64,000 nucleotides of DNA from Parcubacteria group bacterium Gr01-1014_8 (lineage in GTDB: Bacteria > Patescibacteriota > Minisyncoccia > Phycocordibacterales > UBA2100). Of this stretch, positions 2,917-45,757 are shown piece after piece (positions within the stretch are counted from its first letter, which is position 1; each line of letters begins with the position of its first letter). The notes under the pieces were generated by a model. That model made no database searches, had not been told where the DNA came from, and saw only the letters and a list, made by a program, of their open reading frames with translations. The stretch spans positions 1 through 64,000 of the forward strand of contig VMGC01000001.1 of assembly GCA_007376385.1 (NCBI GenBank), given 5' to 3'. The position numbers and the translations under genes are program-made.

Positions 2917-3111
2917 ATGATCGATGAACGGGTGAATTATTGGAATCAGTTCTACGATTTTCGATTCGGCCGGATTGCAATAAAGCATACGCGACGCACC
3001 TGGGGAAGCTGCTCTCGGAAGGGGAATTTGAACTTTTCATACTCTTTGCTCTTTTTACCCAAGCCTCTTGCGGATTACATTGTCGTGCATGATATTGTGT
3101 CATTTAATTGA
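2917..3111 (+). pseudogene. remnant of a DUF45/YgjP-like (WLM-type) metal-dependent hydrolase gene
   Basis: 64-aa ORF ...IKHTRRTWGSCSRKGNLNFSYSLLFLPKPLADYIVVHDIVSFN* matches the conserved R-WGSCS-x-G-I-x-N ... DYV(I/V)VHELCHL core of YgjP/DUF45. It lacks the ~120 aa that normally precede the core and terminates inside the HExxH motif. Confidence 0.5.
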
Positions 3112-3224
3112 GCAAAATCACAAGGCAAGCTTTTGGGAACTTGTCGCCAAAACGCTGCCAAATCATCAAGAGTTGAGACGCGAATTACGCAGGTATCTCC
3201 CGAGCAATTAGTTTTCTACTTCCG

Positions 3225-5162
3225 TTATATTCCCAAGAGCTTACTGAACGTTACGATAACCGCTGCGAGGAAACTAATTGGATTAAGACTTGATTGCGGC
3301 GGAGGCGGTGGAGGGTTTTCAGGAGGCGGTGGAGGAGGAGATTCACCTTGTGGTGGTGGAGGAGCAGACCCATCTCCCGGAGGCATTCCCTCGCCGGGCA
3401 TGCCGCTTGGAGGCGGACCTTGGAATTGGCCTTCATACATACCTGGAGGAGGCATCATATGTTCACCCGGCACTCCTTGTCCTCCCATATATTCACCTGG
3501 CGGCATTTCTGGATTGCCTTGCATGTACTTTTCCTGCATCTCGTTATATTTCTGCATGTTCATTTCGTATACACGACGCTCTTCTTCGCTCGCTCCGGGT
3601 CCCGGTGGTTGCGGCATCATCCTCTGGCCTTCTGGCCCACCTGGCCCCGTGCCCCAGAATCCTTGCTCTACGTGCATTCCGCATGATTCCGGATTCTCGC
3701 GGCATTCTTCCTGCATTTTTTTGCACTCTTCATCGGAGGAGCACAGGCGCTGTCCCGGAGGTATTTCAAATCCCCGCCGCTCTATTGCTCTATCCTGGCC
3801 AAAATCGCGGCACAAATCGGGATGTTCTTTACACACAGCCTCGCATTCCTCTCGCGATCTGCATCCGCCGGGGCCGCCCTGGCCGGGCACGCCCATCCCA
3901 GCTCGACCCTCAAAACCACCCGGCGGAAACGGTCCACCTTCCGGCCCACGCATCATCCCGTGCTCTTTTGCGAACTCCATGCACGTTTCCCGATTATCGG
4001 GATTCTCGCAGAACGTTCGACATTCTTCCCCCTTGCATCCGCCTGGACCCCCCATGTTCATAAATCCGCGGCTTCTTTCCGCATCTTCTTTGGACATAAA
4101 TCCATTTTCGACGGCGAACGCCACGCATTCCTCGTGGTGAGACTCATCTTCGCAGTACGTTCTACATTCTTCGCCCTTACATCCTCCGGGACCTGATTTT
4201 CCCATAAAGTTCTTGGCGCGCTCCGCTTCCTCGGCAGTCATAAACCCGTTCTCGACGGCAAATGCTATACACTCCTCTTGATGCGTCGGCTCTTCGCAGT
4301 ATGTTCTGCATGCCTCGCCAATGCATCCTCCCGGCCCGGGCTTTCCGGCAAATTTCTTCGCATGCTCGAATTCCTCATCTGACATCATGCCGTTTTCGTG
4401 AGCGAATGCGATGCACTCTTCCATGTGGCCCGGTTTATCGCAGTATGTTTTACATGCCTGACCCACACAACCTCCGGGGCCAGATTTGCCCGCGAATTTC
4501 TTCGCGCGTTCGGCTTCATCAGCACTCATGAATCCGTTTTCGACCGCGAATTGTATGCACTCTTCGGCATGAGCGGGATCCTCGCAGTAGCGTTTGCACT
4601 CCTCTCCGCGGCATCCGCCCGGTCCGGGCTTATTGCCCATTTTTCGCGCTCGCTCCGCGTCTTCTTTTGATATGAATCCGTTCTCTTCGGCAAACGTGAT
4701 GCACTCTTCGGCATGAGCGGGATCCTCGCAATACGTTTTACATTCGATACCGCGACATCCTCCCGGTCCCGGCTTGCCCGCAAGTTTGATGGCTCGCTCG
4801 GCGTCCTCTTCGTCTATGAGTCCGTTTTCTCTCGCGAAGGCTATGCATTCCTCTACGTGTTCCTCCGCTTCGCAATAGGTTTTGCACTCGCTTGGCCCGA
4901 TGCACCCTCCAGGCCCAGGCTTATCTCCGAGCTTACGCGCGATTTCGATATCCTCTTCGCTCATCAATCCGTGCTCTTCCGCGAAAAGAAAACACGCCTC
5001 GCGATTTTCAGGAACCTCGCAGAACGCTTGGCATGCACTCTTTGATTCGCAATTACCTAATTCTTCGATGGGGAAGGTTATAGTATCTTCCTGCGCGAAT
5101 GTTACCGCCGCAATCCCAAGAATTATCAACGGGAGGGCGACAAAGAGAATTTTCTTCGACAT
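3225..5162 (-). CDS. secreted cysteine-rich tandem-repeat protein (about 10 C-x5-C-x3-C-x8-C + His modules) with Met/Pro/Gly-rich low-complexity region and C-terminal hydrophobic segment
   Basis: 645-aa ORF with N-terminal signal peptide MSKKILFVALPLIILGIAAVTFAQE. Repeats of about 45 aa: GKPGPGGC-G-EC(K/R)TYCE-P-H-EECIAFA-ENGFMS-EDAERAKKFA. The rest is rich in MxxM / PPG motifs and ends PPPPPP-QSSLNPISFLAAVIVTFSKLLGI*. Confidence 0.8.
   Translation of the reverse strand: MSKKILFVALPLIILGIAAVTFAQEDTITFPIEELGNCESKSACQAFCEVPENREACFLFAEEHGLMSEEDIEIARKLGDKPGPGGCIGPSECKTYCEAEEHVEECIAFARENGLIDEEDAERAIKLAGKPGPGGCRGIECKTYCEDPAHAEECITFAEENGFISKEDAERARKMGNKPGPGGCRGEECKRYCEDPAHAEECIQFAVENGFMSADEAERAKKFAGKSGPGGCVGQACKTYCDKPGHMEECIAFAHENGMMSDEEFEHAKKFAGKPGPGGCIGEACRTYCEEPTHQEECIAFAVENGFMTAEEAERAKNFMGKSGPGGCKGEECRTYCEDESHHEECVAFAVENGFMSKEDAERSRGFMNMGGPGGCKGEECRTFCENPDNRETCMEFAKEHGMMRGPEGGPFPPGGFEGRAGMGVPGQGGPGGCRSREECEAVCKEHPDLCRDFGQDRAIERRGFEIPPGQRLCSSDEECKKMQEECRENPESCGMHVEQGFWGTGPGGPEGQRMMPQPPGPGASEEERRVYEMNMQKYNEMQEKYMQGNPEMPPGEYMGGQGVPGEHMMPPPGMYEGQFQGPPPSGMPGEGMPPGDGSAPPPPQGESPPPPPPENPPPPPPQSSLNPISFLAAVIVTFSKLLGI
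3917..4997. repeat. in-gene tandem repeat array, about 135-bp period, about 8 copies (encodes the Cys4 modules)
   Basis: Protein-level periodicity of about 45 aa with near-identical blocks. The antisense strand consequently carries long spurious ORFs (3133..4140, 3290..4063). Confidence 0.7.
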
Positions 5163-5163
5163 A

Positions 5164-5400
5164 TCAGTCGAAAGGATTCAGCTTCACATCCTCGTACGGA
5201 TTTGTTTTAACGTTTTCAAGCGGATTCGTTTCCACTTCGGCGTATGGATTCACCGCCGCTTGCGCCTCTTCCGTGTCATGAGCTTTCAGAGCGCCTTCCC
5301 ATCCGACATCGTAGCCGAAGTAGTATCCTGCTGCGCCTCCGAGGAGCGCTCCGACGACGAGTCCGGCGAGCGGGGCGACAAAGTTTGCGTGTAGTTGCAT
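5164..5400 (-). CDS. small membrane protein with glycine-zipper TM helix and NP(Y/L/F)xxV(E/K)T tandem motifs; co-operonic with the Cys-rich repeat protein
   Basis: 78 aa: PLAGLVVGALLGGAAGYYFG (TM, GxxxG), then NPYAEVETNPLENVKTNPYEDVKLNPFD. Its stop lies 2 nt from the start codon of the downstream gene on the same strand. Confidence 0.55.
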   Translation of the reverse strand: MQLHANFVAPLAGLVVGALLGGAAGYYFGYDVGWEGALKAHDTEEAQAAVNPYAEVETNPLENVKTNPYEDVKLNPFD

Positions 5401-5547
5401 AAAAAATATTGTAGCTTGTAAGTTGCCGTTAAGTATATACGTATTTCAATGGTTTTTTACGGACCCTGTGCATGGTGCAGGGCGTATCCCCTTGAGGCAT
5501 GATGTCGCGATACAATAAGGACATGAATGGCCGGGCGTTTGGCATCA

Positions 5548-5640
5548 GGGGTAAGCGGGTAAACGTAAGCGGTGTCAGGTAAACGGTAAACGAGTAAACG
5601 GGGTAAACGAACGGTGAGCGAACGGTGTCAGGTACCGTTT
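5548..5640. repeat. cluster of short direct repeats (GTAAACG x5, GTAAGCG x2, CGGTGTCAGGTA x2) in an intergenic region
   Basis: Read directly: ggtaagcgggtaaacgtaagcggtgtcaggtaaacggtaaacgagtaaacggggtaaacgaacggtgagcgaacggtgtcaggtaccg. It lies between the stop of gene 5672..7495 and the start of gene 5164..5400 (both minus strand). Confidence 0.6.
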
Positions 5641-5671: not shown

Positions 5672-7495
5672 CTACTGCCCCAGCAATTGGAGGATCGCTT
5701 TGAGTGCGGATTCGAGTGCGGTGAGGGCGGAGGCGAGTTGGGAATTCTTCGTGGCGGAGGCGGTGCCGCTGGTGACCGTGAACAGAAGCTCGGCGCTCGC
5801 AATTTCGGTATAGCTTGAGTTCAAGAGCCGCACCCAGAGTTTGTGGTTCCCCGGTGGGAGCGATGTGGGAAGCGTATAGGTATATGCTCCCGATGTCGCA
5901 AGGCCGGTCGCAAATGCATGCGATCCGCCGCTCTCCCAACGTATCCAGAGTGCGACTACGGCGCCGCTTGGAGCGTTTGCGCTTGTCCATGCGATGTTCA
6001 GCGTACCTCCGACTGCAACGCTCGTGCCTGTCTGCGGAGAGGTGATGGTGACGGTGGGCCCTGCAGTCGTACCGCTCGTGACCGTGATCGTTGCGGTGGC
6101 GCGGGTGGTTCCGTCAAGGACAAATTTTGCGGTATATGTTCCAGCGGTTGAGTAGATATGGTACTTTCCACCTCGACAATCGGTCAAATTAGAGCAATTC
6201 CCACTATCAACCTTTGTAGTTGAGCCATCACCAAAATCAAGAGTGCCGTTGAAGATGGAAGCTGGGCCAAACACGTAGACTAGCGCGTTTAGTGGTGCTA
6301 TGCCCGATGAGGGAGTTGCAGTGACAGTATAATTTTCCGTGCCAGTGCTCGTCGTACAGTTCGCATACTGATAGTTCGCGTCTCCTGAGAAAGTACCGTT
6401 AGTGCACGTTCGAGATTGCGATATTGATGAGCAGTTGGCATGCGTGCGAGATGAGTAGAAGGGGTGCGACAGGCCGTGTGGTTTCGTGATGCCGTCGAGT
6501 GTGCAGGAAGCTGCGCCTGGAGCACTTGGTACCCATGTACCGTTTTGACAGATGCCGGGGATGCAGTATGCGGTTCCTGTCGGCATTGGAATACAGGAAT
6601 GATGAGATCCATGGGGGTAGGTTTGACCGTTTGCGATGCATGAGTTGTTCGTATCGGTGGTACTTGCAGCTTGCACGATGCAACGTTCGTATTGGTAGCT
6701 TCCGGATAGAGTGCCGTTCGTGCACATGCGGCTTTCCGAGAGACACTGCTGGCCGCTTGATGCTGTTGCGGATTGGTAGGCGGTGATGGACTCGCCGTCT
6801 TTGACTTCTTTGTTGTTGAACCAGCAGGAGGCATTGGTGGTTGTTTGCGGAGTGACTGTGACAGTCGTATTGCACGTTGCGGCGCCTCCTTGTCCCCAGA
6901 AGGCGCCAGTATAAGTGGTGGTCTGCAGCGGAGAGATTGTTCGCGATCCGGAAGTATCCACCGACCCAATCGAGATAATAAGTCCCTGTGTCGCATTTGT
7001 GCTTGACCAGGTGAGCGTCGATGATTGACCGAGGGTGATCGACGAGGGGTTGGCGTTCAGGGTGCACGTGGGAGCTGGGGGAGGATTTGTGGGGGGCGGA
7101 GGTGGCGTAGTCGCGCCGCATGCCTGTTTGATCGCGGCTCTCGTCAAGGGGCCGACTCTGCCGGTTGTGGGGACGTCGTAGTCGCTTTGGAACTGCGTGA
7201 CGTAGTTCTTGGTTTTGTTCCCGAAGAAGCCGGACATCCAGAGGCCGAGCGGGTTATGGAAGTAGTCCATGAGGAAGTGCTGGAGCTGTGAGACCTGGTC
7301 GCCTGTTACGTGGCGGGCGCAGTCGCTATCCGCAATGTTCTCATCGCAGCTGCCATACCACATGTCTTGCGTGAGGGTGGGGCAAAATGGTGTGCCTCCC
7401 GTCTGCGCCGAGGCTACGGTTGGGAGGGAGGCGAGGGTGGGGACTAGGAGAGCGACGAGACCTAAGGAGATAAATAGCTTGCGCATGGGAGCCAT
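5672..7495 (-). CDS. large secreted cell-wall-binding protein: signal peptide, PG_binding_1-like domain, 4-Cys modules, PKD-type module, conserved C-terminal tail ...LTALESALKAILQLLGQ
   Basis: Signal peptide MRKLFISLGLVALLVPTLASLPTVASA. VSQLQHFL ... GFFGNKTKNYVTQFQ ... GRVGPLTRAAI matches the peptidoglycan-binding domain. LDFGDGSTTKVD ... GKYHIYSTAGTYTAKF is PKD-like. Repeated C ... HG ... C ... RxC(T/N)NGT(L/F)SG ... YQYxxC modules. Confidence 0.85.
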   Translation of the reverse strand: MAPMRKLFISLGLVALLVPTLASLPTVASAQTGGTPFCPTLTQDMWYGSCDENIADSDCARHVTGDQVSQLQHFLMDYFHNPLGLWMSGFFGNKTKNYVTQFQSDYDVPTTGRVGPLTRAAIKQACGATTPPPPPTNPPPAPTCTLNANPSSITLGQSSTLTWSSTNATQGLIISIGSVDTSGSRTISPLQTTTYTGAFWGQGGAATCNTTVTVTPQTTTNASCWFNNKEVKDGESITAYQSATASSGQQCLSESRMCTNGTLSGSYQYERCIVQAASTTDTNNSCIANGQTYPHGSHHSCIPMPTGTAYCIPGICQNGTWVPSAPGAASCTLDGITKPHGLSHPFYSSRTHANCSSISQSRTCTNGTFSGDANYQYANCTTSTGTENYTVTATPSSGIAPLNALVYVFGPASIFNGTLDFGDGSTTKVDSGNCSNLTDCRGGKYHIYSTAGTYTAKFVLDGTTRATATITVTSGTTAGPTVTITSPQTGTSVAVGGTLNIAWTSANAPSGAVVALWIRWESGGSHAFATGLATSGAYTYTLPTSLPPGNHKLWVRLLNSSYTEIASAELLFTVTSGTASATKNSQLASALTALESALKAILQLLGQ

Positions 7496-8156: not shown

Positions 8157-8437
8157 CTACTGCCCCAACAATTGGAGGATGGATTGCAGGGTGGATTCGA
8201 GTGAGACCGGGGTGGGGCCCGTCGCAAGGCCAGAGCTGTCGAGGCGAGGAGGGTGAGAAGCGAATACGTGGAGCTTCGCAAGACCTTGAGAGGTTTTATT
8301 TGTGCGTACTCGCGAAAATAAAATCCTCAAGGTGTACTGATCCTGTAAGGATCGCGCAAAATCGTAGCAACGATTTATGCGTGACCGGTGAGGGCGCTGG
8401 CGAGTTGTGAACTGTTCGGAGTAAACGCACCAGTACC
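8157..8437 (-). pseudogene. displaced 3' remnant of gene 8438..9988: about 190-nt structured insertion followed by an orphan copy of the conserved tail (...SLESTLQSILQLLGQ*)
   Basis: 8157..8212 is nearly identical at DNA level to the 3' ends of 5672..7495 and 12169..14901. After the TAG at 8438 the same frame reads GTGAFTPNSSQLASALTGHA*, homologous to ...NSQLASALTALES... of the paralogues. The segment 8211..8398 in between has three hairpins. Confidence 0.55.
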
Positions 8438-9925
8438 CTACCCACCTACGCCGGTGACGGTGACAAGTACATACGTGTTCGTTGTGTCCGGAGATACTGG
8501 CGATGGTGCGAGGCTTGCATAGAGCTTGAAAGACTTGAGAGGCATGTCGGTCGGGACCGTGTAATTGAATGAACCTGACGTGGGGGCGGTTGCGGTCAGG
8601 ACATATTGATTGAGGCCGTCTGTCGACACCATGCTCAATCGGACGATTGACCCAGCCGGCGCGTTCTGCCCCTGCCACGAAATACCGATGACACTCCCGC
8701 GAGCGATGCTCGCGCCCGATTGCGGAGACGTGATGGTGATGGCTGGCGCGCTCTCAACGTCAGTGGCAGTGCAGCTCGCGTACTGGTACGAAGTTGCACC
8801 CGAGAGAACGCCGTTATTACACGTACGGTCGATGGAAAAGGTCTGGCACATCGACCAACTCGAGGCCACGCGCTGCTGGTAGAATTTGCGCGTTTGGCCG
8901 TGTGGCACAGTGACTCCATCAAGCGGGCATGAAGCATTTGCGGTCGGGCAGATTAGCTGATCTTGCGCACACGTCGCGCCCGGCTGCCAGTAGCAACCGA
9001 CAGGAGGATTAGCGTGCTCGCAGATCTGCCTCGGTGCGGTGACGGTGATTGTCGCAACGCCGAGATTGTCAACCTGAGAAGAAACTGTTCGTTTCAGTTT
9101 CGCGATGTAGGTTCCGACGGCTGCATACGTGTGCGAGACGGTGTAGACCTGCGGGCACGAGACGCCCTCCGGCGCGCCGCAGCTCAGGAGATGGAGCGGG
9201 CCGGTCGATCCGTCGCCGAAATCCACGTAAAAGGTCGAAGGCGCGGCGTCTCCGGGATTGACGGTAAATGTGACGGCAAGAGGTGCCTCACCGGATGTTG
9301 GAGAAGCACTGAACGAGGGGTTCGAACTGGTTGTAAGAGATGCAACCATAATCGTCGCGCTGCACGTCGCAACTGCTTGATGCCCCCAGAAGGTGCCGGT
9401 GTAGGTCGCGGTCTGTGTCGGATAGATCGTTTGAGAGCCATGAGGTGCGACCGTGCCAATGCCGCTGATCGTGCCATAGTTCGCGTTCGTGCTTGACCAG
9501 GTGAGGAGGGATGATAGGCCGAGGGTGATGGAGGCCGGCGAGACACTCATGGAGCACTGGGAGTTCGTCGGCGATGGGATTGGTACTGGGTACGAAGTTG
9601 CGGTGCTGCTGCAGACTCTCTGGATGGCTTCTCTGGTTTTGGGGCCCACTCTGCCATAGCCATTAGCGGCTTCGCTTCCCGAACAGATGCCCATCTCCCG
9701 GCACTGGAAGGATCGGACGGCTGCGCGGGTGAGATTGCCAAAGTAGCCGGTCGTGTTGCCTGTTGCGAGATCCCTCGTTTCGATGAGGAAGACTTGGAGT
9801 TCCCGGACATCAGAGCCGGACATGCCGATGGAGAGGTTGCGGTAGAGGTTGGGGCAGGTGGCGGCGGAGGTGAGAGCTGGCAGGAGGAGTGCCACGAGAC
9901 CGAGGGAGAGGAGGAGTTTCTGCAT
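8438..9925 (-). CDS. large secreted cell-wall-binding protein (signal peptide, PG_binding_1-like, PKD-type and 4-Cys modules); C-terminal tail truncated by TAG
   Basis: MQKLLLSLGLVALLLPALTSAAT signal peptide. GSDVRELQVFLIE ... GYFGNLTRAAVRSFQ is PG-binding-like. FYVDFGDGSTG ... HTYAAVGTYIAKL is PKD-like. SCPLDGVTVPHGQTRKFY ... CQTFSIDRTCNNGVLSGATSYQYASC is the recurring 4-Cys module. Start probably the Met at 9925 rather than 9988. Confidence 0.8.
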   Translation of the reverse strand: MQKLLLSLGLVALLLPALTSAATCPNLYRNLSIGMSGSDVRELQVFLIETRDLATGNTTGYFGNLTRAAVRSFQCREMGICSGSEAANGYGRVGPKTREAIQRVCSSTATSYPVPIPSPTNSQCSMSVSPASITLGLSSLLTWSSTNANYGTISGIGTVAPHGSQTIYPTQTATYTGTFWGHQAVATCSATIMVASLTTSSNPSFSASPTSGEAPLAVTFTVNPGDAAPSTFYVDFGDGSTGPLHLLSCGAPEGVSCPQVYTVSHTYAAVGTYIAKLKRTVSSQVDNLGVATITVTAPRQICEHANPPVGCYWQPGATCAQDQLICPTANASCPLDGVTVPHGQTRKFYQQRVASSWSMCQTFSIDRTCNNGVLSGATSYQYASCTATDVESAPAITITSPQSGASIARGSVIGISWQGQNAPAGSIVRLSMVSTDGLNQYVLTATAPTSGSFNYTVPTDMPLKSFKLYASLAPSPVSPDTTNTYVLVTVTGVGG

Positions 9926-9988
9926 GTATGGAATGATACGGGAAAAGTGCGGCGGGGTGGTGCGGGGAGTGGGGATAATGACACGCAA

Positions 9989-11110
9989 CTATTGCAAGAG
10001 AAGTGTTGGTGCTGATTTCCGCGTTACGATCGTCGGCAGTGTTCCAGGAAATTCCGAGAGCCATGCGCGTGAATATGGCGCTTCCCCGGCCCACTTGCAC
10101 TCAAACGCGCGCAACGTCCCCTGCGCGTCTTCGACAAGATCTATTTCCGCGCCCGTTTTCGTCCGCCAGTAATACAGTGTGGCGCGATTGTCTTGACGAT
10201 CCAGTTGCTTCACCCGCTCCGCGATGAAGAAATTCTCAAAAAGGTGGCCTTTGTCCGCGCGGTATTCGAGCGGTTTGAAGTCGTCAATGAGCGCGTTCCT
10301 GATGCCCGTGTCATAAAAATATATTTTGTCGAAGCGCGTGACTTCTTTGCGTTTGTTCTTTCCCAAGGGCGGCAGACGAAAAATGACGAACGCCTGCTCC
10401 AAGAGCCGCACATAACCCATCACAGTCTGCCGGCTCACTTCGAGCTGCTGTGCAAGTTCATTGTAGGAGACTTGCTGCCCAACCTGGAGCGCGAGAAGTT
10501 TCACTAGTTTTTCGACCACCATCGGCTTACGGATCGTCTCGATGCGCAGGACATCCCTAAGGAGATAGTCGCGCGCGAGCGAACGCGCCTCGTTCTCCGG
10601 CAGTGGTGCGGCAATGACCGCCGGATATGACCCAAAACGGATGCGCTCTTCCAGGAGTCGCGATGCCTCGATCGTGCCGATCGACGCCGCATATTCCGAG
10701 AATGAGATCGGATGGAGCGTAAACGATTCGTTCCGCCCGGTCAAAGGCTCGCTCACCGAATTTGATAATTCAAACGACGATAATCCAGTGGCAATGATGG
10801 TGAGATCCGGATAGGTGTCGTGCAGGAGTTTCAGCGAAAGGCCGATGTCTGGCACGCGTTGCGCCTCATCCAATACTACAAGCTGCCCGTCCCCGATGAA
10901 CGATTTCATTTCCGTCGAGGTCTTTCTCGTAAGCGCTTCCCGGATATCGGGTTCGTCGCAGTTCAGATACCTGCTTTTGCCCGTGTATCCTGCTAGAATC
11001 TCCTTAACGAGCGTTGTCTTCCCCACTTGTCGGGCACCATACAGGATGATAATTTTGGATTTGCCAAGGACTGACTCAATCTTCGGTTTTAGATACCTAT
11101 TTATATGCAT
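9989..11110 (-). CDS. AAA-family ATPase, DUF4143-type (Walker A GARQVGKTT)
   Basis: 373 aa. N-terminal P-loop LYGARQVGKTTL and a Walker B-like VVLDEAQ. Overall architecture resembles the widespread 'ATPase AAA + DUF4143' family that is often found in mobile or defence neighbourhoods. Confidence 0.7.
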   Translation of the reverse strand: MHINRYLKPKIESVLGKSKIIILYGARQVGKTTLVKEILAGYTGKSRYLNCDEPDIREALTRKTSTEMKSFIGDGQLVVLDEAQRVPDIGLSLKLLHDTYPDLTIIATGLSSFELSNSVSEPLTGRNESFTLHPISFSEYAASIGTIEASRLLEERIRFGSYPAVIAAPLPENEARSLARDYLLRDVLRIETIRKPMVVEKLVKLLALQVGQQVSYNELAQQLEVSRQTVMGYVRLLEQAFVIFRLPPLGKNKRKEVTRFDKIYFYDTGIRNALIDDFKPLEYRADKGHLFENFFIAERVKQLDRQDNRATLYYWRTKTGAEIDLVEDAQGTLRAFECKWAGEAPYSRAWLSEFPGTLPTIVTRKSAPTLLLQ

Positions 11111-11162
11111 ACTTGCTTTTATGACGCTATATTAGCAAGTATACTGGCGATTGTCAATACTT

Positions 11163-11459
11163 CTACTGCCCCAGCAATTTCAGGATGGATTGCAATGCCG
11201 ATTCGAGTGCGGTGAGGGAGTTGGCGAAAGGCTTCTGCCTCATTGTTCCTGACACTTTATTGGCGTGCAATACCCCGTGGAGTCGGTACTCCGACCCTCG
11301 GGGATGCACACCAAACCCGAATGGGCGGTGGCCCATTCCTATTCCAACACAAAATTCGCGGGAAACCACCGTGGCGTTTTTGCTCGAAGATGAGCGCCCA
11401 CCGGGCGCACTCATTTGAAAGGGCGGCGATTCATCCCCGCTAGCCTGGCTGCGGGGCAT
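11163..11459 (-). pseudogene. orphan copy of the conserved C-terminal tail (...FANSLTALESALQSILKLLGQ*) with unrelated upstream sequence
   Basis: Last 22 codons and about 70 nt match the 3' ends of 5672..7495 and 12169..14901. Upstream residues have no similarity to those genes. Sits between the AAA ATPase and the HepT/MntA pair. Confidence 0.5.
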
Positions 11460-12168: not shown

Positions 12169-14877
12169 CTACCGTCCCAAGAGTTGCAGGATCGCTTTGA
12201 GCGCAGATTCGAGTGCGGTGAGGGAGTTGGCGAGCTGTGTGTGGTTTTGTGCCGCTGCGGTCGGGGCAGTCACGGTGACCGTGATCGTCTCGTGAGGATC
12301 GTAGGTAAAGCCACCAAAAGTATGAACTGTATATGTGCCAGGGCTTGTGTAGATGTGATCCACCAGATAATACGGGTAGCTAGAATCTGTCCCAGGGTAC
12401 GGCGGAGAATATGGCGGCGTGCCATCACCGAAATCGATTGAGGGAAAGACACCCCCGCTATTTGGCGAGTGCGGAACAAGTAGATGTACTGTGAGGGGCG
12501 CGGATCCAGATGAAGGTACAGCGTTGAGACTATTCAGAACATCGCTGCAGTACGCATACCTATAAGCTGCATTGCCCGAGAGCGTGCCGTTTGTACAGGT
12601 TCGCGACAACGACGAACCAGTAGTGGAACAATTTCCCCAACGATTCGAGTAGAAGATGCGACTCTGACCATTTTGAATAGTAACTCCATCGAGGGTGCAC
12701 GAACTGCCATCGGGTGGTGGGGGCGGATACACTTTCACAATGTAATTCTGCACGCTCCAGCCGTCGATCGTGCTGTTGTCCCAGTCGATCTTCCACCACG
12801 TGAAGCCGTTCGCGCTCTGCGGGCCGTCAATGATGGTTCCCTCTGCCCCTGTCGGCTGTGCGTCGAGGATGGCGCCGCTTGTGGAGGGTGTCGCACGGAC
12901 GTTCACGGCGTCGGTCGCCCGCACCCGATCGCCGATTGCGAATGGGGGTGGGGTGGTGCCGCCAGTTACGTTGACTGCCGCAGTCGCCGTCTCATACCCG
13001 CCGTTCGCTAGGAGTTTGGCGGTGTAGCTTCCGGGAGTGGTATACGTGTGCACGATAGTGCCCGAACAGGGGCCGGTACCGGTACACGATTTCTCCGCTG
13101 CGGTGATCTGATGAATGGGCGTACCGTCACCAAAATTGATACGGAACGCTAAGAGCGTCTGGGTAACGGTAAATGCAAGATTGGTAGCGAGAGGCGCGGG
13201 ACCGGAACTGGGAGTTGCGGTGAGGGTGTTTTGGTTGGTGTGAGGGGCGGTGATGGCTACCGTTGCGCGGACGACGCCGCCAATGAGGAGACGAACAGTG
13301 TATGTTCCGGAGGCGGTATATGCATGACCCCCCGTCGCATACCCGGCGCACATCCCATTGTTGTTGCAGTTTTGGGGCGTGACGGTTCCGTACGGCGATC
13401 CGTCGCCCCAGTCGACCTGGCCCTGGAAAATATCGTTTGGTCCTTTCACGCCAAGCCCGAAGCTGTAAGGCAGTCCGGCAGCGGGAGTGGGGATGAGGGA
13501 ATATGTGTTCGTATTCGACACTTTCGCGATGTAATTCTGCACGCTCCAGCCGTCGATCGGGCTGTTGTCCCAATTTATCTTCCACCAGGTGTAGCTGTTC
13601 GCGCTTTGCGGGCCGTCAATGATGGTTCCCTCCGCTCCTGTCGGTTGTGCGCCGAGGATGGTGCCGCTCGTCGAGGGTGTCGCACGGACGTTGACGGCAT
13701 CGGTCGCCCGCACCCTGTCGCCGACTGCGAATGGGGGTGGAGTGCCGGCGGCGGTGATCGTAAAAGGGATGTTCGTTTGGGCAAGCACTTGATAATTAGG
13801 CATCCGCAACGTGGCATAAATGCCTCCATTGCCTGCTAATAAATACAACTCCGTAGGAGTCCAAACATATGAGCCACTCAGCGGCTGAATTCCCCCGATA
13901 CCATACATCGGGGCACCGTAGGGACCCCACGAAAGGATGACCTGGGCGTTTGCGGGTGCATTCTGCGATTGCCAGGAAATGGTGACGGGATTATTTACTT
14001 GGACCGATGATCCCGACGGTGGCGCGGTGATGGTGATGGAGGGAGAAGTGTTCCCCTCTGGCCATGTGCAGGCTGCGTATTGGTACGAGGTCGCGCCCGA
14101 GAGGACGCCATTATTACACGTGCGGTCGATGGAATTCGTCTGGCATTGGGAGGAAGAAACTTCGTCGCGGTGCAGATAGAATTTACGCGTAGCTCCGTGC
14201 GCCACCGTGACCCCATCGAGCGTACAGGAGGTGCCTGACGTAAGCGGCGAAGTGACAGATATTGAGACTGAAGCCACAGTGGCACCAGCTGTCGTCCGCA
14301 GCGAGGCCGTGTAGGTCCCTGCCGACGCGTAGGTGTGGGGAAATTCGCACCCTCCTCCCGTGTAGCACTCGGGATGCAAATCTTGGGACGCGCCGTCGCC
14401 AAAATAGACTCGATACGTGTTGCCGGTTCCGGAGAACGTGAACGTCACCGCGAGGGGGACAACGCCGGATGTCGGCGAGGCAGAAAACGTCGGAGTCTGT
14501 AACGTTTGCGTATGACACGTAAACCGCGGGCCGATGGTGTAGGGGCCGAGCGGGTTTGAGGCGTTGTTGCTGTGCACCCACCAGGCATACTCCTGGTTCG
14601 GCGAAATGGGGAGGGTGATCGTTGTTTCTCCGCGAGTACTGACGGCATGGACAAAATCCGCGTTCCCCGGAATATTAACGCGAACGCTGTAGTAGGTGGC
14701 GTTCGCGGCCGGCGACCACGAGAGCGTCACCTCATCGCCCGCAGCGTTGCAAATGGCCTGAAGATTTTGCGGCGCGGCGAGTGCATCTGGCCCCCAGGGG
14801 GTTGATGACAGCTGCGCGGACGCGAGCGCGGGAGCGAGAACGAGTGCGAAGCCGAATGCCGCGAATAGTTTCTTCAT
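12169..14877 (-). CDS. large secreted protein: FN3-like, several PKD-type modules, two SH3b domains, 4-Cys modules, conserved C-terminal tail ...LTALESALKAILQLLGR
   Basis: Signal peptide MKKLFAAFGFALVLAPALASA. Near-identical internal duplicates GDRVRATDAVNVRATPSTSG(T/A)IL(G/D)AQPTGAEGTIIDGPQSAN ... WWKI(N/D)WDNS are SH3b-like. YRVYFGDGASQ ... HTYASAGTYTASL, VDWGDGSPYG, INFGDGTPI ... HTYTTPGSYTAKL and SIDFGDGTPP are PKD signatures. Confidence 0.85.
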   Translation of the reverse strand: MKKLFAAFGFALVLAPALASAQLSSTPWGPDALAAPQNLQAICNAAGDEVTLSWSPAANATYYSVRVNIPGNADFVHAVSTRGETTITLPISPNQEYAWWVHSNNASNPLGPYTIGPRFTCHTQTLQTPTFSASPTSGVVPLAVTFTFSGTGNTYRVYFGDGASQDLHPECYTGGGCEFPHTYASAGTYTASLRTTAGATVASVSISVTSPLTSGTSCTLDGVTVAHGATRKFYLHRDEVSSSQCQTNSIDRTCNNGVLSGATSYQYAACTWPEGNTSPSITITAPPSGSSVQVNNPVTISWQSQNAPANAQVILSWGPYGAPMYGIGGIQPLSGSYVWTPTELYLLAGNGGIYATLRMPNYQVLAQTNIPFTITAAGTPPPFAVGDRVRATDAVNVRATPSTSGTILGAQPTGAEGTIIDGPQSANSYTWWKINWDNSPIDGWSVQNYIAKVSNTNTYSLIPTPAAGLPYSFGLGVKGPNDIFQGQVDWGDGSPYGTVTPQNCNNNGMCAGYATGGHAYTASGTYTVRLLIGGVVRATVAITAPHTNQNTLTATPSSGPAPLATNLAFTVTQTLLAFRINFGDGTPIHQITAAEKSCTGTGPCSGTIVHTYTTPGSYTAKLLANGGYETATAAVNVTGGTTPPPFAIGDRVRATDAVNVRATPSTSGAILDAQPTGAEGTIIDGPQSANGFTWWKIDWDNSTIDGWSVQNYIVKVYPPPPPDGSSCTLDGVTIQNGQSRIFYSNRWGNCSTTGSSLSRTCTNGTLSGNAAYRYAYCSDVLNSLNAVPSSGSAPLTVHLLVPHSPNSGGVFPSIDFGDGTPPYSPPYPGTDSSYPYYLVDHIYTSPGTYTVHTFGGFTYDPHETITVTVTAPTAAAQNHTQLANSLTALESALKAILQLLGR

Positions 14878-14969
14878 GCGCGAGATGTTACGAATATGCA
14901 TACATCATGCCATGCGGCCGGCGCTTCGCGCCGGCCGCTTTGCACACCCATGTGGATAGCGAAATTGCG

Positions 14970-20168: not shown

Positions 20169-23156
20169 TCAAAGATACGAGACGTTTATCGTTGCAGTAT
20201 ACGGGGTTCCGCTTCCGGGCGGGAAGATCTTCGCGGTGTACGTGCCGGGTAGATTGTATGTATGCGGCCATGAGAGCGAAAACATATAACAATCCGTGGT
20301 CTTATGCGGGATTGGTGCAAGGTCATTGAAGCTCGCAGACGTGCCATCTCCATAGTCGATGCTGTACGGCCGGTAGTCGCACACGTTCATCGAGGAACCG
20401 AACGTAACCGTGAGGGGCGCAGAACCACTTGCAGGCTGGGCGCTTAGGATCTTCGGCGAGTCAAAGTAGATAAGTGCGAAAGTAACAGGCGCGCTGCCGC
20501 ATTGATTGCTGAGGTTGCTACATACTTCTACTGTATAGGTTCCGGCAGGCATTCCTTCGGGTATGCCAAGCGATAGAGAAAGTCTGGTACCTCCGTCACT
20601 CGACGGCACGTTGCTTCCAACGTTCCAGCCTGCATTTCCGCTAACCAGGTTTACGATGTTGGATGTGCCGAAGCCCGTGCCGGTGATCACAACTGGCGTT
20701 GCAATGCTGCCACTCGAAGGCGTGATCGAGAATATGGCCGGCCGTGCCACATTCTGCGCACTGATGGTGAATTGCGGAGACCAATTGTTGACCAGCACAC
20801 ACGATCCCGATGTGCAGCCCGCCTGCGACCCAGCGGCGAGAAGGTACGCATGGATGTTGTGTGTCCCGGGCGTCCAGCTGGGTGGTATGGGCCAGCTGTA
20901 GCTACCTGTTGTTGGGAAGAGCGACGTACCGGGCGTAGGGTTGAGGAGGGCGAAGTCCTGCGCTCCGTTGGGGCCGGGCACCGTGAGCCATAGCGAGACG
21001 CCCGAGCCGGTCGGTGCATTATCGCTCGACCATGAGACGGGAAGTGTGCTGCCGACAGTGTAGCTGCCGCCCGTAGGAGAACTCACCCGAATGTTGGGGA
21101 TGCCAGTGGACGATGTCACGAAGGTGAAGGGCGTGTCACTGAAATCTCTTGCGTACGAACCATCGGCTCCCTGCCACTCGGCGAGAAGATACCACTGCCC
21201 CGGTGCATACCATTTATTTATCTGTGTGTTACCGCTGTCGACGATCGGATCCTGAACCGCCGGGTCGAAGCCGTTCCCCGTCCTCAGCCAGCGGTATTCC
21301 CCTTGTTTCCACAAGTCATCGTTACGCCTCGTAAGGGTGAGTATGATATCGCCCTTGCTCTTTGCGTTGTTGACCACTACCTTGAGCGGCATGAAGTCCC
21401 CGGTGTCATCGGTCGTTCCTATGACGTATGTCTCGCCACCGCTCGGGGCGCTCACGCGGATATCCAGCTTTGACTGATTCACGAAAGAAAACGGCATGTC
21501 GCTCTTGTCGTCTAGATACCCTGACCCGTCGGCTTTTTGACCGGTAATATAAATCTTGAAGATGGCGCCTTGGTCAATGTCCGTTGCAAAGTCTTTAGGC
21601 ATCCATGTATACGAACCAGAAGCGACGATATCCGGTCCCACGTCTTTGTTGATCCACGCTTTCCACATGTCGTTTTTATACAGAGCGATACTCATGTGGT
21701 TAAGACCGACCTGACTCCAATAAATAGTGTGTTTCTGGTCGAGTGGAATAACCTCCCCGCCATTAGGCGTAGTAATCCTCAAGCTCGCGGGCTGATTGGC
21801 ATACATTAGGGTCACGTAATCGCTCACCGTCGAGGTGTCTGAGCGTCTGCAGGTTATGTTCACGTAGTTCGCCGAAACATAATACATGCCGCTCCCTGAC
21901 GGATCTACATTGATATTGCCTACCGTGTCTCCCGGCCTCGCAGTGACACCGTACAGTACGCAACTTGTAACATTTCTGCCAATCCACGAAACGGTGATGG
22001 CGGTATTCACGGCTACTTGAACCGGGCCATCAGAGCCATTTACTTTTAGATCGATTGCGGGTGCGAGTAGCGTGAAGGCTGCGTCAGAACGATCCCATGC
22101 GCCTGTATTGTTGTTGACGACGCGTACATAGTACTGGCCGGGGGGCGGATACTTGCCGACGCTGTTTGCATCAAACACGCGCATATAGGTGTGGATCGAA
22201 GCCTTACCTTCTTCGCGAAGCTGGCCGACTACTGTAAACAGTTCGCTTCCACCATCTCGTCGTTCGAGATACGCAGAGACCTCATGTGCTGGATTTACCA
22301 CCGGGTCGTAACCGTATGGTTTCCAAGTAATGGTGTTCATGACTCCCTCCTCCCACACCTCGCCGCCATTGGGAGACACAACAGTAATCGGATTAGACGT
22401 GTTCCCGCCTGTAACAGTTATCCAGACCAGCCCCACAAGCGTGCGGATACAGCCCGCCGGGCAATCCTGAAGTTCATAGAGCACGGCTTTATACGTGCCC
22501 GATGATGTATATGTGTGTGAGACGCCATCTTTACCCTCTGCCCTCGTGCCGTACTCTGGAGTGCCATCGCCAAAATTGAGCACGTATCCGTCGCCGACCG
22601 CTTTTAAGTGTTCCATGACAAACCAGACAGAAAGTGGAGCAGCACCAATAGTCGGCGTTGCAGAGAGAAAATTTTCTGATAAGTCCGCATTCGCCGCCGC
22701 CTGTGCCCTTCCACACACTTCAGCGATCTTTGCTCGCGTCATACTACCGACAATGCCATATGCGGGAAGACCGTGTTCCTTTTGGAATTGGATGACGTAT
22801 TTCTCGGTCAATTTTCCGAAGTAACCGGTCACGATGTCTTCTTCGTTGAGACCGTAGTATTCTGCAAGAAATATCTGGAGTTCCGTTACCTGCCCCGGGG
22901 GGTTCGTCTGACTATCGCGGAAGGGGCGCTTCATTGTGGTCGAAAGCTGGGGGCAATAAACGCCGGGAGTGGAATCACCACTCGGGTAGTCATCGGTCGT
23001 CGCGGCGCCAAGCACCATGCCGTTTGTCGAGAGACCCCGTAGCTGTGCGAGCACGGACTCAAGTTGTAGGCGGATTTCGTCGAGTGTTTTGGCGGAAGTT
23101 GTCAAAGGCAGGGCAAAGACGACGAGGCAAGCACCCAAAGAAATGTATTTTTTCAT
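20169..23156 (-). CDS. giant secreted cell-wall-binding protein: PG_binding_1-like, PKD-type modules, IPT/TIG-like module
   Basis: Signal peptide MKKYISLGACLVVFALPLTTSA. TELQIFLAEYYGL ... GYFGKLTEKYVIQFQKEHGLPAYGIVG is PG-binding. LNFGDGTPEYG ... HTYTSSGTYKAVL and SIDYGDGTSASF ... HTYNLPGTYTAKI are PKD. IFSITPSSGSIATPVVITGTGFG is IPT-like. Confidence 0.8.
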   Translation of the reverse strand: MKKYISLGACLVVFALPLTTSAKTLDEIRLQLESVLAQLRGLSTNGMVLGAATTDDYPSGDSTPGVYCPQLSTTMKRPFRDSQTNPPGQVTELQIFLAEYYGLNEEDIVTGYFGKLTEKYVIQFQKEHGLPAYGIVGSMTRAKIAEVCGRAQAAANADLSENFLSATPTIGAAPLSVWFVMEHLKAVGDGYVLNFGDGTPEYGTRAEGKDGVSHTYTSSGTYKAVLYELQDCPAGCIRTLVGLVWITVTGGNTSNPITVVSPNGGEVWEEGVMNTITWKPYGYDPVVNPAHEVSAYLERRDGGSELFTVVGQLREEGKASIHTYMRVFDANSVGKYPPPGQYYVRVVNNNTGAWDRSDAAFTLLAPAIDLKVNGSDGPVQVAVNTAITVSWIGRNVTSCVLYGVTARPGDTVGNINVDPSGSGMYYVSANYVNITCRRSDTSTVSDYVTLMYANQPASLRITTPNGGEVIPLDQKHTIYWSQVGLNHMSIALYKNDMWKAWINKDVGPDIVASGSYTWMPKDFATDIDQGAIFKIYITGQKADGSGYLDDKSDMPFSFVNQSKLDIRVSAPSGGETYVIGTTDDTGDFMPLKVVVNNAKSKGDIILTLTRRNDDLWKQGEYRWLRTGNGFDPAVQDPIVDSGNTQINKWYAPGQWYLLAEWQGADGSYARDFSDTPFTFVTSSTGIPNIRVSSPTGGSYTVGSTLPVSWSSDNAPTGSGVSLWLTVPGPNGAQDFALLNPTPGTSLFPTTGSYSWPIPPSWTPGTHNIHAYLLAAGSQAGCTSGSCVLVNNWSPQFTISAQNVARPAIFSITPSSGSIATPVVITGTGFGTSNIVNLVSGNAGWNVGSNVPSSDGGTRLSLSLGIPEGMPAGTYTVEVCSNLSNQCGSAPVTFALIYFDSPKILSAQPASGSAPLTVTFGSSMNVCDYRPYSIDYGDGTSASFNDLAPIPHKTTDCYMFSLSWPHTYNLPGTYTAKIFPPGSGTPYTATINVSYL

Positions 23157-23202
23157 GTTACGAAAGACTACAATGATGCACACAGTATAGCGCACATTAT
23201 TC

Positions 23203-45737: not shown

Positions 45738-45757
45738 GCATACAGTATGACTTCTCA

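What the first reader, a model, noticed from the sequence alone, without database searches (positions are those of the whole stretch)
3225..5400. Two-gene operon: small NPY-repeat membrane protein plus secreted protein with about 10 tandem Cys4(+His) modules and a Met/Pro-rich tail
Gene 3225..5162 encodes a signal-peptide protein whose central 360 aa are eight near-identical 45-aa repeats, GKPGPGGC-x-G-x-EC-(K/R)-TYC-E-x2-x-H-x-EEC-IAFA-ENGFMS-EDAERAKKFA. It has two more degenerate copies, one at the N-terminal side and two on the C-terminal side. Each has the fixed spacing C-x5-C-x3-C-x8-C with a conserved His. It then has a roughly 200-aa region full of M-x(1-3)-M, PPG and PPPPPP stretches (MMPQPPGPG ... 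MQKYNEMQEKYMQGNPEMPPGEYMGG ... HMMPPPGMYEG) and a C-terminal hydrophobic anchor. Met-rich MxxM patches are a hallmark of periplasmic Cu(I)-handling proteins. Regularly spaced Cys4/His modules suggest stoichiometric metal, possibly Zn/Cu, or disulfide-knot repeats. I do not recognise this repeat as any named domain. The upstream co-transcribed 78-aa protein has a glycine-zipper TM helix and NPYAEVETNPLENVKTNPYEDVKLNPFD repeats. The period-135-bp DNA repeat is also a likely site of copy-number variation.
Basis: partly seen in the sequence, partly recalled or inferred. Interest (0 to 1): 0.7.

Follow-up and report, generated by a model that had tools for sequence, protein, structure and literature searches.

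The report
Patescibacterial cysteine-repeat surface protein with partner
This is a real, conserved two-gene unit found only in the ultra-small Patescibacteria (CPR): a secreted acidic protein built from about ten previously undescribed four-cysteine three-helix modules, always paired with a tiny membrane protein that ends in NPF repeats; it is most likely a disulfide-braced cell-surface rod rather than a copper or zinc handling protein.

Summary
Both genes exist on the minus strand (5164..5400 and 3225..5162), separated by 1 nt. The large protein has 40 Cys in ten Cys4 units.
- The period is 48 aa / 144 bp, not 45 / 135.
- Modules are 54-75% identical (62-72% at DNA level), not near-identical, so an assembly artefact is implausible.
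- Core spacing in this protein is C-x4-C-x3-C-x8-C.

The small TM + NPF-repeat gene sits directly upstream in 14 of 14 other loci examined.

The metal reading is weakened. The "conserved His" is 68% His / 28% Asn. The Met-rich tail is lineage-specific (7.2% Met against a family median of 2.0%). Export is Sec-type. Some relatives carry Kazal or ConA-like lectin domains in the same chain. CPR are reported to be enriched in MdbA/VKOR disulfide machinery.

Best reading: a disulfide-stapled surface rod with a Pro-rich spacer, a C-terminal sorting-like helix and an NPF-tail membrane partner. Its function is untested.

The parts
5164..5400 (-). Small partner gene (78 aa plus stop): a bitopic membrane protein with an acidic C-terminal tail of NP[YLF] repeats ending in NPFD.
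   Evidence: ORF. A homologous small gene lies directly upstream of the Cys-module gene in 10/10 loci reached from the large protein and in 4/4 loci reached from the small protein. Alignment A4: G25, N67, P68, N75, P76 and F77 are invariant.
5311..5379 (-). Predicted TM helix of the partner (aa 8-30, Gly-zipper-like GxxxG pattern).
   Evidence: Weak Pfam Gly-zipper_Omp hit (E = 0.02). Best 19-aa KD window = 1.89. Charge bias favours N-in/C-out in 32 family members against 10.
5167..5250 (-). Four NP[YLF] motifs at roughly 8-aa spacing (NPYAEVETNPLENVKTNPYEDVKLNPFD). The last two are invariant in the family.
   Evidence: 51 of 52 partner homologs end in NPF plus 0-2 residues, and the mean net charge of the tail is -3.8.
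3225..5162 (-). Large gene (645 aa plus stop): a secreted, acidic (mature pI 4.6) protein made of Cys4 three-helix modules.
   Evidence: At least 1,921 homologs, all named ones from Patescibacteria. 1,905 50%-identity representatives carry the module.
5094..5162 (-). Sec-type signal peptide-like segment (aa 1-23: KK n-region, hydrophobic core, TFA|QE).
   Evidence: Read directly from the sequence. An N-terminal hydrophobic region is present in 222/240 family members. There is no twin-arginine motif.
4923..5093 (-). N-terminal cap (ITFPIEELGNC) plus module 1, which lacks GPGG (aa 24-80).
   Evidence: The cap motif is present in 192/240 members. P31, E34 and L35 are at least 90% conserved. pLDDT is about 90-96.
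3963..4922 (-). Modules 2-8 (aa 81-400): period 48 aa, consensus GPGGC-x4/5-C-x3-C-x8-C-xxFA-xxNG(F/L)(I/M)SxEEAxRAKKF. Each module is three helices.
   Evidence: AF2 pLDDT is about 88-96 with helices of about 8, 13 and 10 residues per module. The two-module fragment has pLDDT 87.
3684..3875 (-). Two degenerate Cys4 hairpin modules (aa 430-493): C-x5-C-x3-C-x6-C and C-x5-C-x5-C-x6-C.
   Evidence: These are helical with pLDDT about 73-88 in the model. The (5,3,6) spacing class recurs 83 times in the family.
3297..3683 (-). Low-complexity spacer rich in Pro, Gly and Met, with one predicted helix (aa 526-548).
   Evidence: The P/G/Q richness is family-wide. The Met richness is specific to this lineage.
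3228..3296 (-). C-terminal signal-like element (QSSLNPISFLAAVIVTFSKLLGI): a short motif followed by a hydrophobic or amphipathic helix.
   Evidence: The motif [PQ][TSQ]S[RGFLK] lies 19-26 residues from the C-terminus in 69/240 members, against 3.4% in control windows. The helix is amphipathic, and 115/240 members end in R or K.
5408..5413 (-). A -10-like TACAAT hexamer 7 nt upstream of the partner's ATG, with no Shine-Dalgarno sequence. This may indicate a leaderless transcript start for the two-gene unit.
   Evidence: Read. Similar -10-like boxes lie 6-10 nt from the start codon in L004, L013, L014 and L017. The consensus promoter scan did not call it, so this is an inference only.

Best explanation
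The pair encodes a Patescibacteria-specific cell-surface structure.

The large protein is exported through Sec and its signal peptide is removed. Each 48-aa module then folds into a small three-helix unit. Four invariant cysteines hold it together: one in the GPGG turn, two on one face of helix 1 (i, i+4), and one in helix 2. These most likely form two structural disulfides, inferred as C1-C3 and C2-C4. The eight full modules plus cap stack into a rigid acidic rod.

The variable Pro/Gly/Gln-rich segment acts as a flexible, wall-spanning spacer. In some relatives it carries Kazal or ConA-like lectin domains. The C-terminal motif plus short amphipathic helix plus basic end acts as a membrane-association or sorting element.

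The co-translated small protein sits in the membrane with its acidic NPF-repeat tail outside. It is proposed to dock onto the large protein and tether or organise it.

Shown: existence, architecture, conservation, gene pairing, lack of any known relative, and the confident helical module model. Inferred: disulfides rather than metal, outside orientation of the NPF tail, physical interaction of the two proteins, and a structural, tethering or adhesive role.
For: Secretion and extracellular context:
- An N-terminal Sec-like signal in 222/240 members.
- Fusions to extracellular domains in relatives: Kazal in 1-3 copies and Laminin_G_3.
- The window neighbourhood holds envelope proteins: YkuD/S11, and PG_binding/PKD/SH3 proteins.

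Module:
- Four Cys are 100% conserved. F29 is 94%, Y/F16 is 100% aromatic, and GPGG is 85-96% conserved. The other conserved positions are core or helix-capping residues (S-x-E-E).
- AF2 gives pLDDT of about 90 across aa 30-400 and an overall pTM of 0.54 even though about 30% of the chain is disordered, which implies fixed inter-module packing.

Disulfide competence:
- Kazal domains need disulfides and occur in the same chain.
- CPR are reported to be enriched in an MdbA-like oxidoreductase, often next to VKOR (bioRxiv 10.1101/335083).
- A membrane-anchored DsbA-like CPFC protein lies about 0.7 kb downstream in L008 and L015.
- An Fe/Mn SOD gene is present in the window.

Partner:
- It is adjacent and co-oriented in 14/14 other loci, 13 of them independent, with gaps of 1-130 nt.
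- The terminal NPY-x4-NPF is invariant.
- Charge bias favours the tail being outside.
- No other neighbour is conserved.
Against: - Disulfide bonding was not demonstrated. Model coordinates could not be read to measure S-S distances. Cys-loss patterns are uninformative because Cys are never lost.
- A Cys4 cluster could equally bind Zn or another metal.
- Many CPR live in anoxic groundwater, where extracellular thiols could stay reduced.
- The partner's topology rests on a weak charge rule: 10 of 52 proteins point the other way.
- No interaction test was possible, since no multimer prediction is available. No natural fusions exist.
- It is unresolved which end of the large protein is proximal to the membrane.
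- The C-terminal motif is detectable in only 29% of members with the pattern used.
- There are no expression or localisation data.
Confidence: 0.5

Rival explanations
1. Each module is a Cys4 metal site (Zn, Cu(I), Fe or Cd). The protein would then be an extracellular high-capacity metal buffer, scavenger or detoxifier, helped in this organism by a Met-rich tail.
For: - Four invariant, clustered Cys per module, ten per chain.
- A very acidic protein, pI 4.6-4.9.
- M-x-M and Met-Pro patches in this protein's tail.
- His is present in 68% of modules.
- CPR habitats are often reducing, which would keep thiols free.
Against: - His is replaced by Asn in 28% of modules.
- The Met-rich tail is not a family trait: median 2.0% Met.
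- There are no CxxC knuckles, and two ligands would come from i, i+4 positions on one helix.
- Export is Sec-type, so the chain is unfolded and cofactor-free when exported.
- Disulfide-dependent Kazal domains occur in the same chain in relatives.
- CPR are enriched in MdbA/VKOR.
- There is no match to any metal-binding family in Pfam or NCBIfam or in the PDB.
- No metal transporter or chaperone is a conserved neighbour.
Confidence: 0.17
2. The array is a redox-active extracellular thiol/disulfide reservoir or relay. It could act as an oxidant sink or antioxidant shield, or as a partner of the MdbA/VKOR pathway, rather than as a purely structural element.
For: - Forty absolutely conserved Cys, including a CxxxC on helix 1.
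- A DsbA-like gene close by in one lineage.
- SOD in the window.
- CPR lack most respiratory chains (general knowledge).
Against: - There is no thioredoxin fold and no CxxC active-site motif.
- The Cys sit at buried helix-helix positions of a small module, typical of structural staples.
- DsbA adjacency was seen in only one lineage out of 14 loci.
- The partner protein has no Cys or redox motif.
Confidence: 0.08
3. It is the S-layer protein, or another lattice-forming envelope protein, of these bacteria, with the small protein as its membrane anchor.
For: - An acidic secreted protein that is widespread in the lineage.
- CPR cells are reported to have an S-layer (Luef et al. 2015, as cited within).
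- Pairing with a conserved membrane anchor.
Against: - Bacterial S-layer proteins are typically Cys-poor and rich in beta structure (general knowledge).
- There is no SLH or other S-layer domain.
- About 40% of the chain is variable low-complexity sequence.
- There is no evidence of self-assembly.
Confidence: 0.1
4. The array is an assembly artefact or a recently expanded, unstable tandem repeat with no conserved function.
For: - There is a tandem 144-bp periodicity.
- Modules within the protein are more alike (59%) than modules at the same position in orthologs (49%), which suggests some homogenisation.
Against: - The units are only 62-72% identical at DNA level.
- The ORF is intact.
- The same 6-13-module architecture is found in 240 retrieved homologs from many independent assemblies.
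- All four Cys are kept in every full module.
Confidence: 0.01

Closest known systems
Staphylococcal protein A-type Gram-positive surface proteins (signal peptide, tandem three-helix-bundle domains, Pro-rich wall-spanning region, C-terminal sorting signal)
   Same: The overall layout is the same: a Sec signal, tandem small three-helix modules, a Pro-rich spacer, then a C-terminal short motif plus hydrophobic helix plus (in many relatives) a basic end. This is the closest analogue for how the protein probably works. The comparison rests on general knowledge of protein A.
   Different: - There is no sequence or fold match.
- The modules are 48 aa and each is braced by four Cys, whereas protein A domains have none.
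- There is no LPXTG motif.
- The terminal helix is short and amphipathic.
- There is a dedicated small membrane partner.
ARM/HEAT-type alpha-solenoid repeats
   Same: Repeats of 40-50 aa made of 2-3 helices that stack into a continuous rod. The only weak Foldseek hits to the full model are solenoids such as importin-alpha, PP2A-A, PPR10 and MO25. Solenoid grooves bind extended peptides, a possible analogy for docking of the NPF tail.
   Different: - Solenoids are cytoplasmic and free of disulfides.
- The cysteine signature and GPGG turn have no counterpart.
Disulfide-stapled helical hairpins (twin CX3C/CX9C CHCH domains, plant alpha-hairpinins) and Euplotes three-helix pheromones
   Same: These are small helical units in which cysteines spaced i, i+4 on a helix bridge to a neighbouring element. 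There is a weak Pfam hit of module 1 to the Euplotes pheromone family (E = 0.04, below the cut-off).
   Different: - Those families have paired CX3C or CX9C motifs on both helices. Here there is one CX3C on helix 1, a single Cys on helix 2 and one in the preceding turn.
- There is no significant sequence or fold match.
- Those proteins are single domains, not arrays.
Periplasmic Cu(I)-handling proteins with Met-rich motifs (CopC/PcoC, CusF, CueO insert)
   Same: MxM and MxxM patches occur in the tail of this particular protein.
   Different: - The Met patches are not conserved in the family.
- There is no homology to any copper family.
- No copper genes are nearby.
EH-domain / NPF-motif recognition in eukaryotic endocytosis
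   Same: The partner carries repeated NPF/NPY motifs in an acidic, probably disordered tail. Helical modules might serve as the receptor. This is an analogy from general knowledge only.
   Different: - There are no EF-hand or EH domains here.
- The system is bacterial and probably extracellular.
- The interaction is untested.

Membership tests
Any curated protein family (Pfam-A 2025, NCBIfam 20.0) | A score above the family's curated cut-off, with at least one significant domain stretch. | tested here: not met
   The best hit is HepT-like at 26.6 bits, but no single stretch passes. It sums weak matches to the helical 'FAxxNGF' segment. All other hits fall below their cut-offs.
Known solved folds (PDB) | Significant sequence or structure similarity to a solved chain. 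| tested here: not met
   [not shown]
Met-rich Cu(I)-binding proteins | Met (or His) motifs conserved across homologs as the ligand set. | tested here: not met
   Tail Met content is 7.2% here against a family median of 2.0% and a 90th percentile of 5.4%.
Met-rich Cu(I)-binding proteins | A homologous copper-binding fold (CopC, CusF or cupredoxin). | tested here: not met
   There are no Pfam or NCBIfam hits. The tail is predicted to be disordered.
Cys4 / Cys3His zinc-binding modules (zinc ribbons, treble clefs) | Two CxxC-type knuckles, or an equivalent arrangement with an invariant ligand set. | tested here: not met
   The spacing is C-x4/5-C-x3-C-x8-C, with two Cys at i, i+4 on a helix. The His column is only 68% His.
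Cys4 / Cys3His zinc-binding modules (zinc ribbons, treble clefs) | Tetrahedral ligand geometry, or measured metal content. | not testable with these tools
Twin CX3C / CX9C (CHCH) and alpha-hairpinin domains | A Cys pair with identical spacing on each of the two antiparallel helices. | tested here: not met
   Only helix 1 carries a CX3C. Helix 2 has one Cys, and the fourth lies in the GPGG turn.
ARM/HEAT alpha-solenoids | Significant structural superposition on an ARM or HEAT array. | tested here: not met
   Importin-alpha, PP2A-A and similar proteins appear only at E = 1-5 with TM at most 0.13.
Sortase substrates (LPXTG-type cell-wall sorting signal) | An LPXTG-like pentapeptide before the C-terminal hydrophobic segment. 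| tested here: not met
   There is no LPXTG. Instead a [PQ][TSQ]S[RGFLK] motif lies 19-26 residues from the end in 29% of members.
Sortase substrates (LPXTG-type cell-wall sorting signal) | A hydrophobic segment followed by a positively charged tail. | tested here: inconclusive
   The helix is short and amphipathic (mean KD about 1.0). 115/240 members end in R or K, but the window protein ends in ...KLLGI.
S-layer proteins | SLH or another S-layer anchoring or lattice domain. | tested here: not met
   No such Pfam hit was found.
Kazal-type inhibitors | A Kazal domain in this protein. | tested here: not met
   It is absent from the window protein. It is present only as an accessory domain in some relatives.

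The most novel reading that the evidence does not exclude
The two genes may encode a previously unrecognised, Patescibacteria-specific envelope apparatus. In this reading, a new disulfide-braced (or metal-braced) helical repeat fold forms a surface fibre of defined length. The fibre is held by a new kind of anchor: a small membrane protein whose C-terminal NPF peptides plug into the modules. Its variable tip region (lectin domain, Kazal domain or amphipathic helix) mediates attachment to, or protection from, the host cell on which these episymbionts live.
Probability: 0.2. Interest if true: 0.85.

Novelty: new variant of a known kind. Interest (0 to 1): 0.6.

Why it matters
Patescibacteria make up a large share of bacterial diversity. 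They live as ultra-small, mostly uncultured episymbionts, and little is known about what their surfaces are made of or how they attach to hosts.

This finding defines a lineage-restricted and widespread two-protein surface module, present in about 1,900 clusters at 50% identity. Its repeat domain has no counterpart in Pfam, NCBIfam or the PDB, and its partner is invariant.

It provides a concrete, easily expressed target of 48-aa modules for structural work. It is also a likely major substrate for the CPR-enriched MdbA/VKOR oxidative-folding pathway, and a candidate handle (antibody or tag) for visualising or enriching these cells.

If the cysteines instead bind metal, it would be an unusual extracellular multi-site metalloprotein.

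Tried and rejected
- The search for related loci failed with alignments A1 and A2 because no stretch was conserved enough. The single-protein scan gave only 7 loci.
- The single-sequence search with the 78-aa partner found only 5 relatives. The profile search found 42.
- Cys-loss analysis to deduce disulfide pairing was uninformative. 1,078 of 1,090 modules keep all four Cys, and the rest are truncated alignments.
- Positional orthology of modules is weak: 49% identity at the same position against 46% at other positions. Modules therefore cannot be numbered across species.
- Literature searches for the motif, for CPR cysteine-rich or Kazal proteins, and for CPR envelope cryo-ET found no description of this family.
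- The Pfam hits to HepT-like, Nif11, SHOCT and YrzK were rejected as sums of sub-threshold matches to a generic helix-turn-helix segment.
- A c-type haem site was considered and rejected. There is no CxxCH, and the His lies 5 residues after Cys3 and is not conserved.
- Fe-S clusters were considered and rejected. Export is by Sec rather than Tat, and the modules are too far apart for electron transfer (inference).
- The consensus promoter and terminator scan gave nothing above the shuffled expectation.
- The exact sequences of both proteins are absent from the public collection, so the source organism could not be named.
- The GTTTACY repeat cluster upstream is not conserved in other loci.
Full report
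OBSERVATION

Both ORFs are real and lie on the minus strand. The 78-aa gene is at 5164..5400 and the 645-aa gene at 3225..5162. They are separated by a single nucleotide, TGA-t-ATG.

The large protein starts with a Sec-type signal-like segment. It contains exactly 40 Cys arranged as ten Cys4 units. It ends with a 277-aa region rich in Pro, Gly and Met, followed by a hydrophobic C-terminus.

- The period is 48 aa / 144 bp, not 45 aa / 135 bp.
- The core spacing in this protein is C-x4-C-x3-C-x8-C. The x5 variant dominates in the family.
- The modules are 54-75% identical at protein level and 62-72% at DNA level, so they are not near-identical.

This last point removes the assembly-collapse worry and makes recent slippage unlikely. 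Modules within the protein are nevertheless more alike (59%) than modules at the same position in orthologs (49%). That indicates slow homogenisation or turnover over evolutionary time.

WHAT IT IS NOT

The protein has no credible hit in Pfam-A or NCBIfam. The HepT-like, Nif11 and SHOCT scores are sums of sub-threshold matches to a generic helical segment.

Comparison with solved structures also found nothing:
- Whole protein against PDB sequences: nothing.
- 70-sequence module profile against PDB sequences: nothing at E up to 10.
- Foldseek with the full AlphaFold2 model: best E = 0.85, all generic alpha-solenoids with TM at most 0.13.
- Foldseek with a two-module model (pLDDT 87): best E = 1.4.

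Full-text searches found no description of the motif or the family.

WHAT IT IS

The protein belongs to a large family restricted to Patescibacteria.
- At least 1,921 relatives were found. All those named by their sources come from CPR lineages (Sungbacteria, Kaiserbacteria, Azambacteria, Wildermuthbacteria, Kuenenbacteria, Parcubacteria), and nearly all are called hypothetical.
- An exhaustive HMMER scan of 1.84 billion representatives with the module profile found 1,905 proteins at E up to 1e-3 and 1,060 at E up to 1e-30. The 150 best hits listed all carry multi-module arrays.

In 240 retrieved members the architecture is constant:
- a hydrophobic N-terminal signal (222/240)
- a cap motif of the form (I/V)xFP(I/V)xELGxC (192/240)
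- 6-13 modules
- an acidic pI (median 4.9)
- a variable low-complexity Pro/Gly/Gln region
- a short C-terminal amphipathic helix that often ends in R or K

Across 870 full modules, the conservation is as follows:
- the four Cys are 100% conserved
- Phe29 is 94%
- the aromatic residue at position 16 is 100% (Y 87%, F 13%)
- GPGG is 85-96%
- the remaining conserved positions are core hydrophobics or helix-capping residues

AlphaFold2, run with a 121-sequence alignment, models aa 30-400 at pLDDT of about 90. Each module has three helices of roughly 8, 13 and 10 residues. The overall pTM is 0.54 even though about 30% of the chain is disordered, which implies defined packing between modules, that is, a rod.

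THE PARTNER

A small gene lies immediately upstream on the same strand in every locus examined:
- three loci reached through distant homologs
- seven loci from the species-representative genomes
- four loci reached reciprocally from partner homologs, where the next gene always encodes a protein with 6-9 Cys modules

That makes 14 of 14 other loci, 13 of them independent. No other neighbour is conserved. The only recurrences are Peptidase_M10 upstream in two loci and a YgjP-like peptidase downstream in the closest relative.

The partner has one TM helix and an acidic tail with 2-4 NP[FYL] motifs. The last two motifs (NPY-x4-NPF) are invariant. 51 of 52 homologs end in NPF plus 0-2 residues. Flanking charges favour N-in/C-out in 32 proteins against 10, and the mean tail charge is -3.8. 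The tail is therefore probably outside the cell, in the same compartment as the module protein. No natural fusions of the two proteins were found.

METAL OR DISULFIDE

- The Met enrichment is specific to this lineage: 7.2% against a family median of 2.0%.
- The His column is 68% His and 28% Asn.
- There is no CxxC, and two of the Cys lie at i, i+4 on helix 1.

Several lines of evidence point to structural disulfides instead:
- Export is Sec-type, so the chain leaves unfolded and without cofactors.
- Some relatives carry one to three Kazal domains, or a ConA-like lectin domain, in the same chain. Kazal domains need disulfides to fold.
- Meheust et al. report that CPR are enriched in an MdbA-like thiol-disulfide oxidoreductase. 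Its CxxC is conserved in 92% of 3,496 proteins, and it is often next to VKOR.
- A membrane-anchored DsbA-like CPFC protein lies just downstream in L008 and L015.
- The window also encodes an Fe/Mn superoxide dismutase.

Together these favour two structural disulfides per module. From helix geometry I infer the pairing C1-C3 and C2-C4.

This was not shown directly. Coordinates could not be inspected, and the Cys are never lost, so loss patterns give no pairing information. I put a Cys4 metal site at about 0.17.

MECHANISM (COMMITTED, WITH STATUS)

Shown:
- a secreted acidic multi-module protein
- an obligatorily co-encoded small membrane protein
- restriction of both to CPR
- a new module with a confident three-helix model

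Inferred:
- After Sec export the modules are oxidised, plausibly by MdbA/VKOR, into a rigid rod.
- The Pro-rich segment spans the wall.
- The C-terminal element associates with the membrane or acts as a sorting signal. It consists of the motif [PQ][TSQ]S[RGFLK] 19-26 residues from the end, found in 29% of members against 3.4% in control windows, followed by the amphipathic helix and a basic end.
- The partner's NPF tail docks onto the module array and tethers or organises it.

It is unresolved which end of the large protein faces the membrane. Accessory lectin and Kazal domains in relatives suggest a role in binding and protection at the cell surface, possibly at the interface with a host. Overall confidence is about 0.5. 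Individual claims are more or less secure: extracellular location about 0.9, disulfides about 0.7, partner interaction about 0.6.

COMPARISON WITH KNOWN SYSTEMS

In layout the protein most resembles Gram-positive surface proteins of the protein A type. Those have a signal peptide, tandem three-helix domains, a Pro-rich wall spacer and a C-terminal sorting signal. This protein lacks LPXTG, has Cys-braced 48-aa modules, and has a dedicated partner.

In shape it resembles ARM/HEAT solenoids, but there is no significant structural match. It is not a CHCH or alpha-hairpinin domain, a zinc ribbon, a copper protein, an S-layer protein or a Kazal inhibitor. Each of these failed a defining feature that was tested here.

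NOVELTY AND SCORE

Family members already sit in databases as hypothetical proteins. The module, the partner and their pairing appear to be undescribed and match no curated family or solved fold.

I classify this as a new variant of a known kind: a tandem-repeat, probably disulfide-stabilised bacterial surface protein with a wall spacer and C-terminal signal. It is built on a new domain and has a new partner.

Interest is 0.6. It is a well-defined, lineage-wide unknown in an important and poorly understood bacterial group, and it can be tested directly. No surprising mechanism has yet been demonstrated.

Noticed in passing
window 5672..5746(-), 12169..12243(-), about 11120..11195(-), 8157..8231(-): Four ORFs in the window end with nearly the same C-terminal helix, L(T/A)ALESAL(K/Q)(A/S)IL(Q/K)LLG(Q/R)-stop. 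Two are large secreted PG_binding/PKD/SH3 surface proteins (5672..7495 and 12169..14901). The other two look like detached 3' fragments. This may be a lineage-specific C-terminal sorting or anchoring signal, related in style to the ...KLLGI end of the Cys-module protein.
   Followed up: partly
window 8157..8678(-) versus 8438..9988(-): The ORF carrying the ...ILQLLGQ ending overlaps the 3' end of the PG_binding+PKD gene 8438..9988 in another reading frame. This suggests a frameshift (pseudogene or sequencing error) that cuts the C-terminal signal off that protein.
   Followed up: no
window 2917..3211(+): A YgjP-like (DUF45) metallopeptidase gene lies convergent to the large gene. It appears to be split between two frames: the HExxH-like 'LCHLIEQNH' motif is in ORF 3068..3211, and the preceding part is in ORF 2917..3111. 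An intact YgjP-like gene occupies the same position in the closest relative, L007.
   Followed up: partly
window 5558..5608(-): Five direct GTTTAC[CT] heptamers lie within 51 bp, about 160-210 nt upstream of the partner gene's ATG. These are 5 of only 12 matches in the whole 64-kb window. The cluster could be a regulator-binding array or a degenerate microsatellite. It is not found upstream of the homologous gene pair in 11 other loci.
   Followed up: partly
window 5408..5413(-); L004, L013, L014, L017 just upstream of the partner gene: A -10-like box (TACAAT, TATAAT or TAATAT) lies 6-10 nt upstream of the small gene's start codon with no Shine-Dalgarno sequence. This suggests leaderless transcription of the two-gene unit in several lineages.
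   Followed up: partly
window 5672..7495, 8438..9988, 20169..23219, 37928..39466, 42514..44322, 44361..45761 (all minus strand): At least six paralogous secreted proteins combine an N-terminal PG_binding_1 domain with PKD or Ig-like domains. That is an unusually dense family of wall-associated surface proteins for a 64-kb stretch.
   Followed up: no
L008 6291..7019(+) and L015 6050..6778(+): A membrane-anchored DsbA/thioredoxin-like protein with a CPFC active-site motif is encoded about 0.7 kb downstream of the Cys-module gene in this lineage.
   Followed up: partly
window 30674..31261(+): An Fe/Mn superoxide dismutase gene is present in this CPR-like genome. This implies exposure to oxygen.
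   Followed up: no
window 9989..11110(-): An AAA_14/DUF4143 ATPase gene is inserted among the surface-protein genes. It lies next to one of the detached ...ILKLLGQ C-terminal fragments, so it may have disrupted a surface-protein gene.
   Followed up: no
P0145, P0215, P0233 (family members); P0061, P0130, P0026: In relatives the variable tail region carries accessory domains: Laminin_G_3 (ConA-like lectin), or one to three Kazal domains. It also carries extra two-helix Cys4 mini-modules without the third helix.
   Followed up: partly
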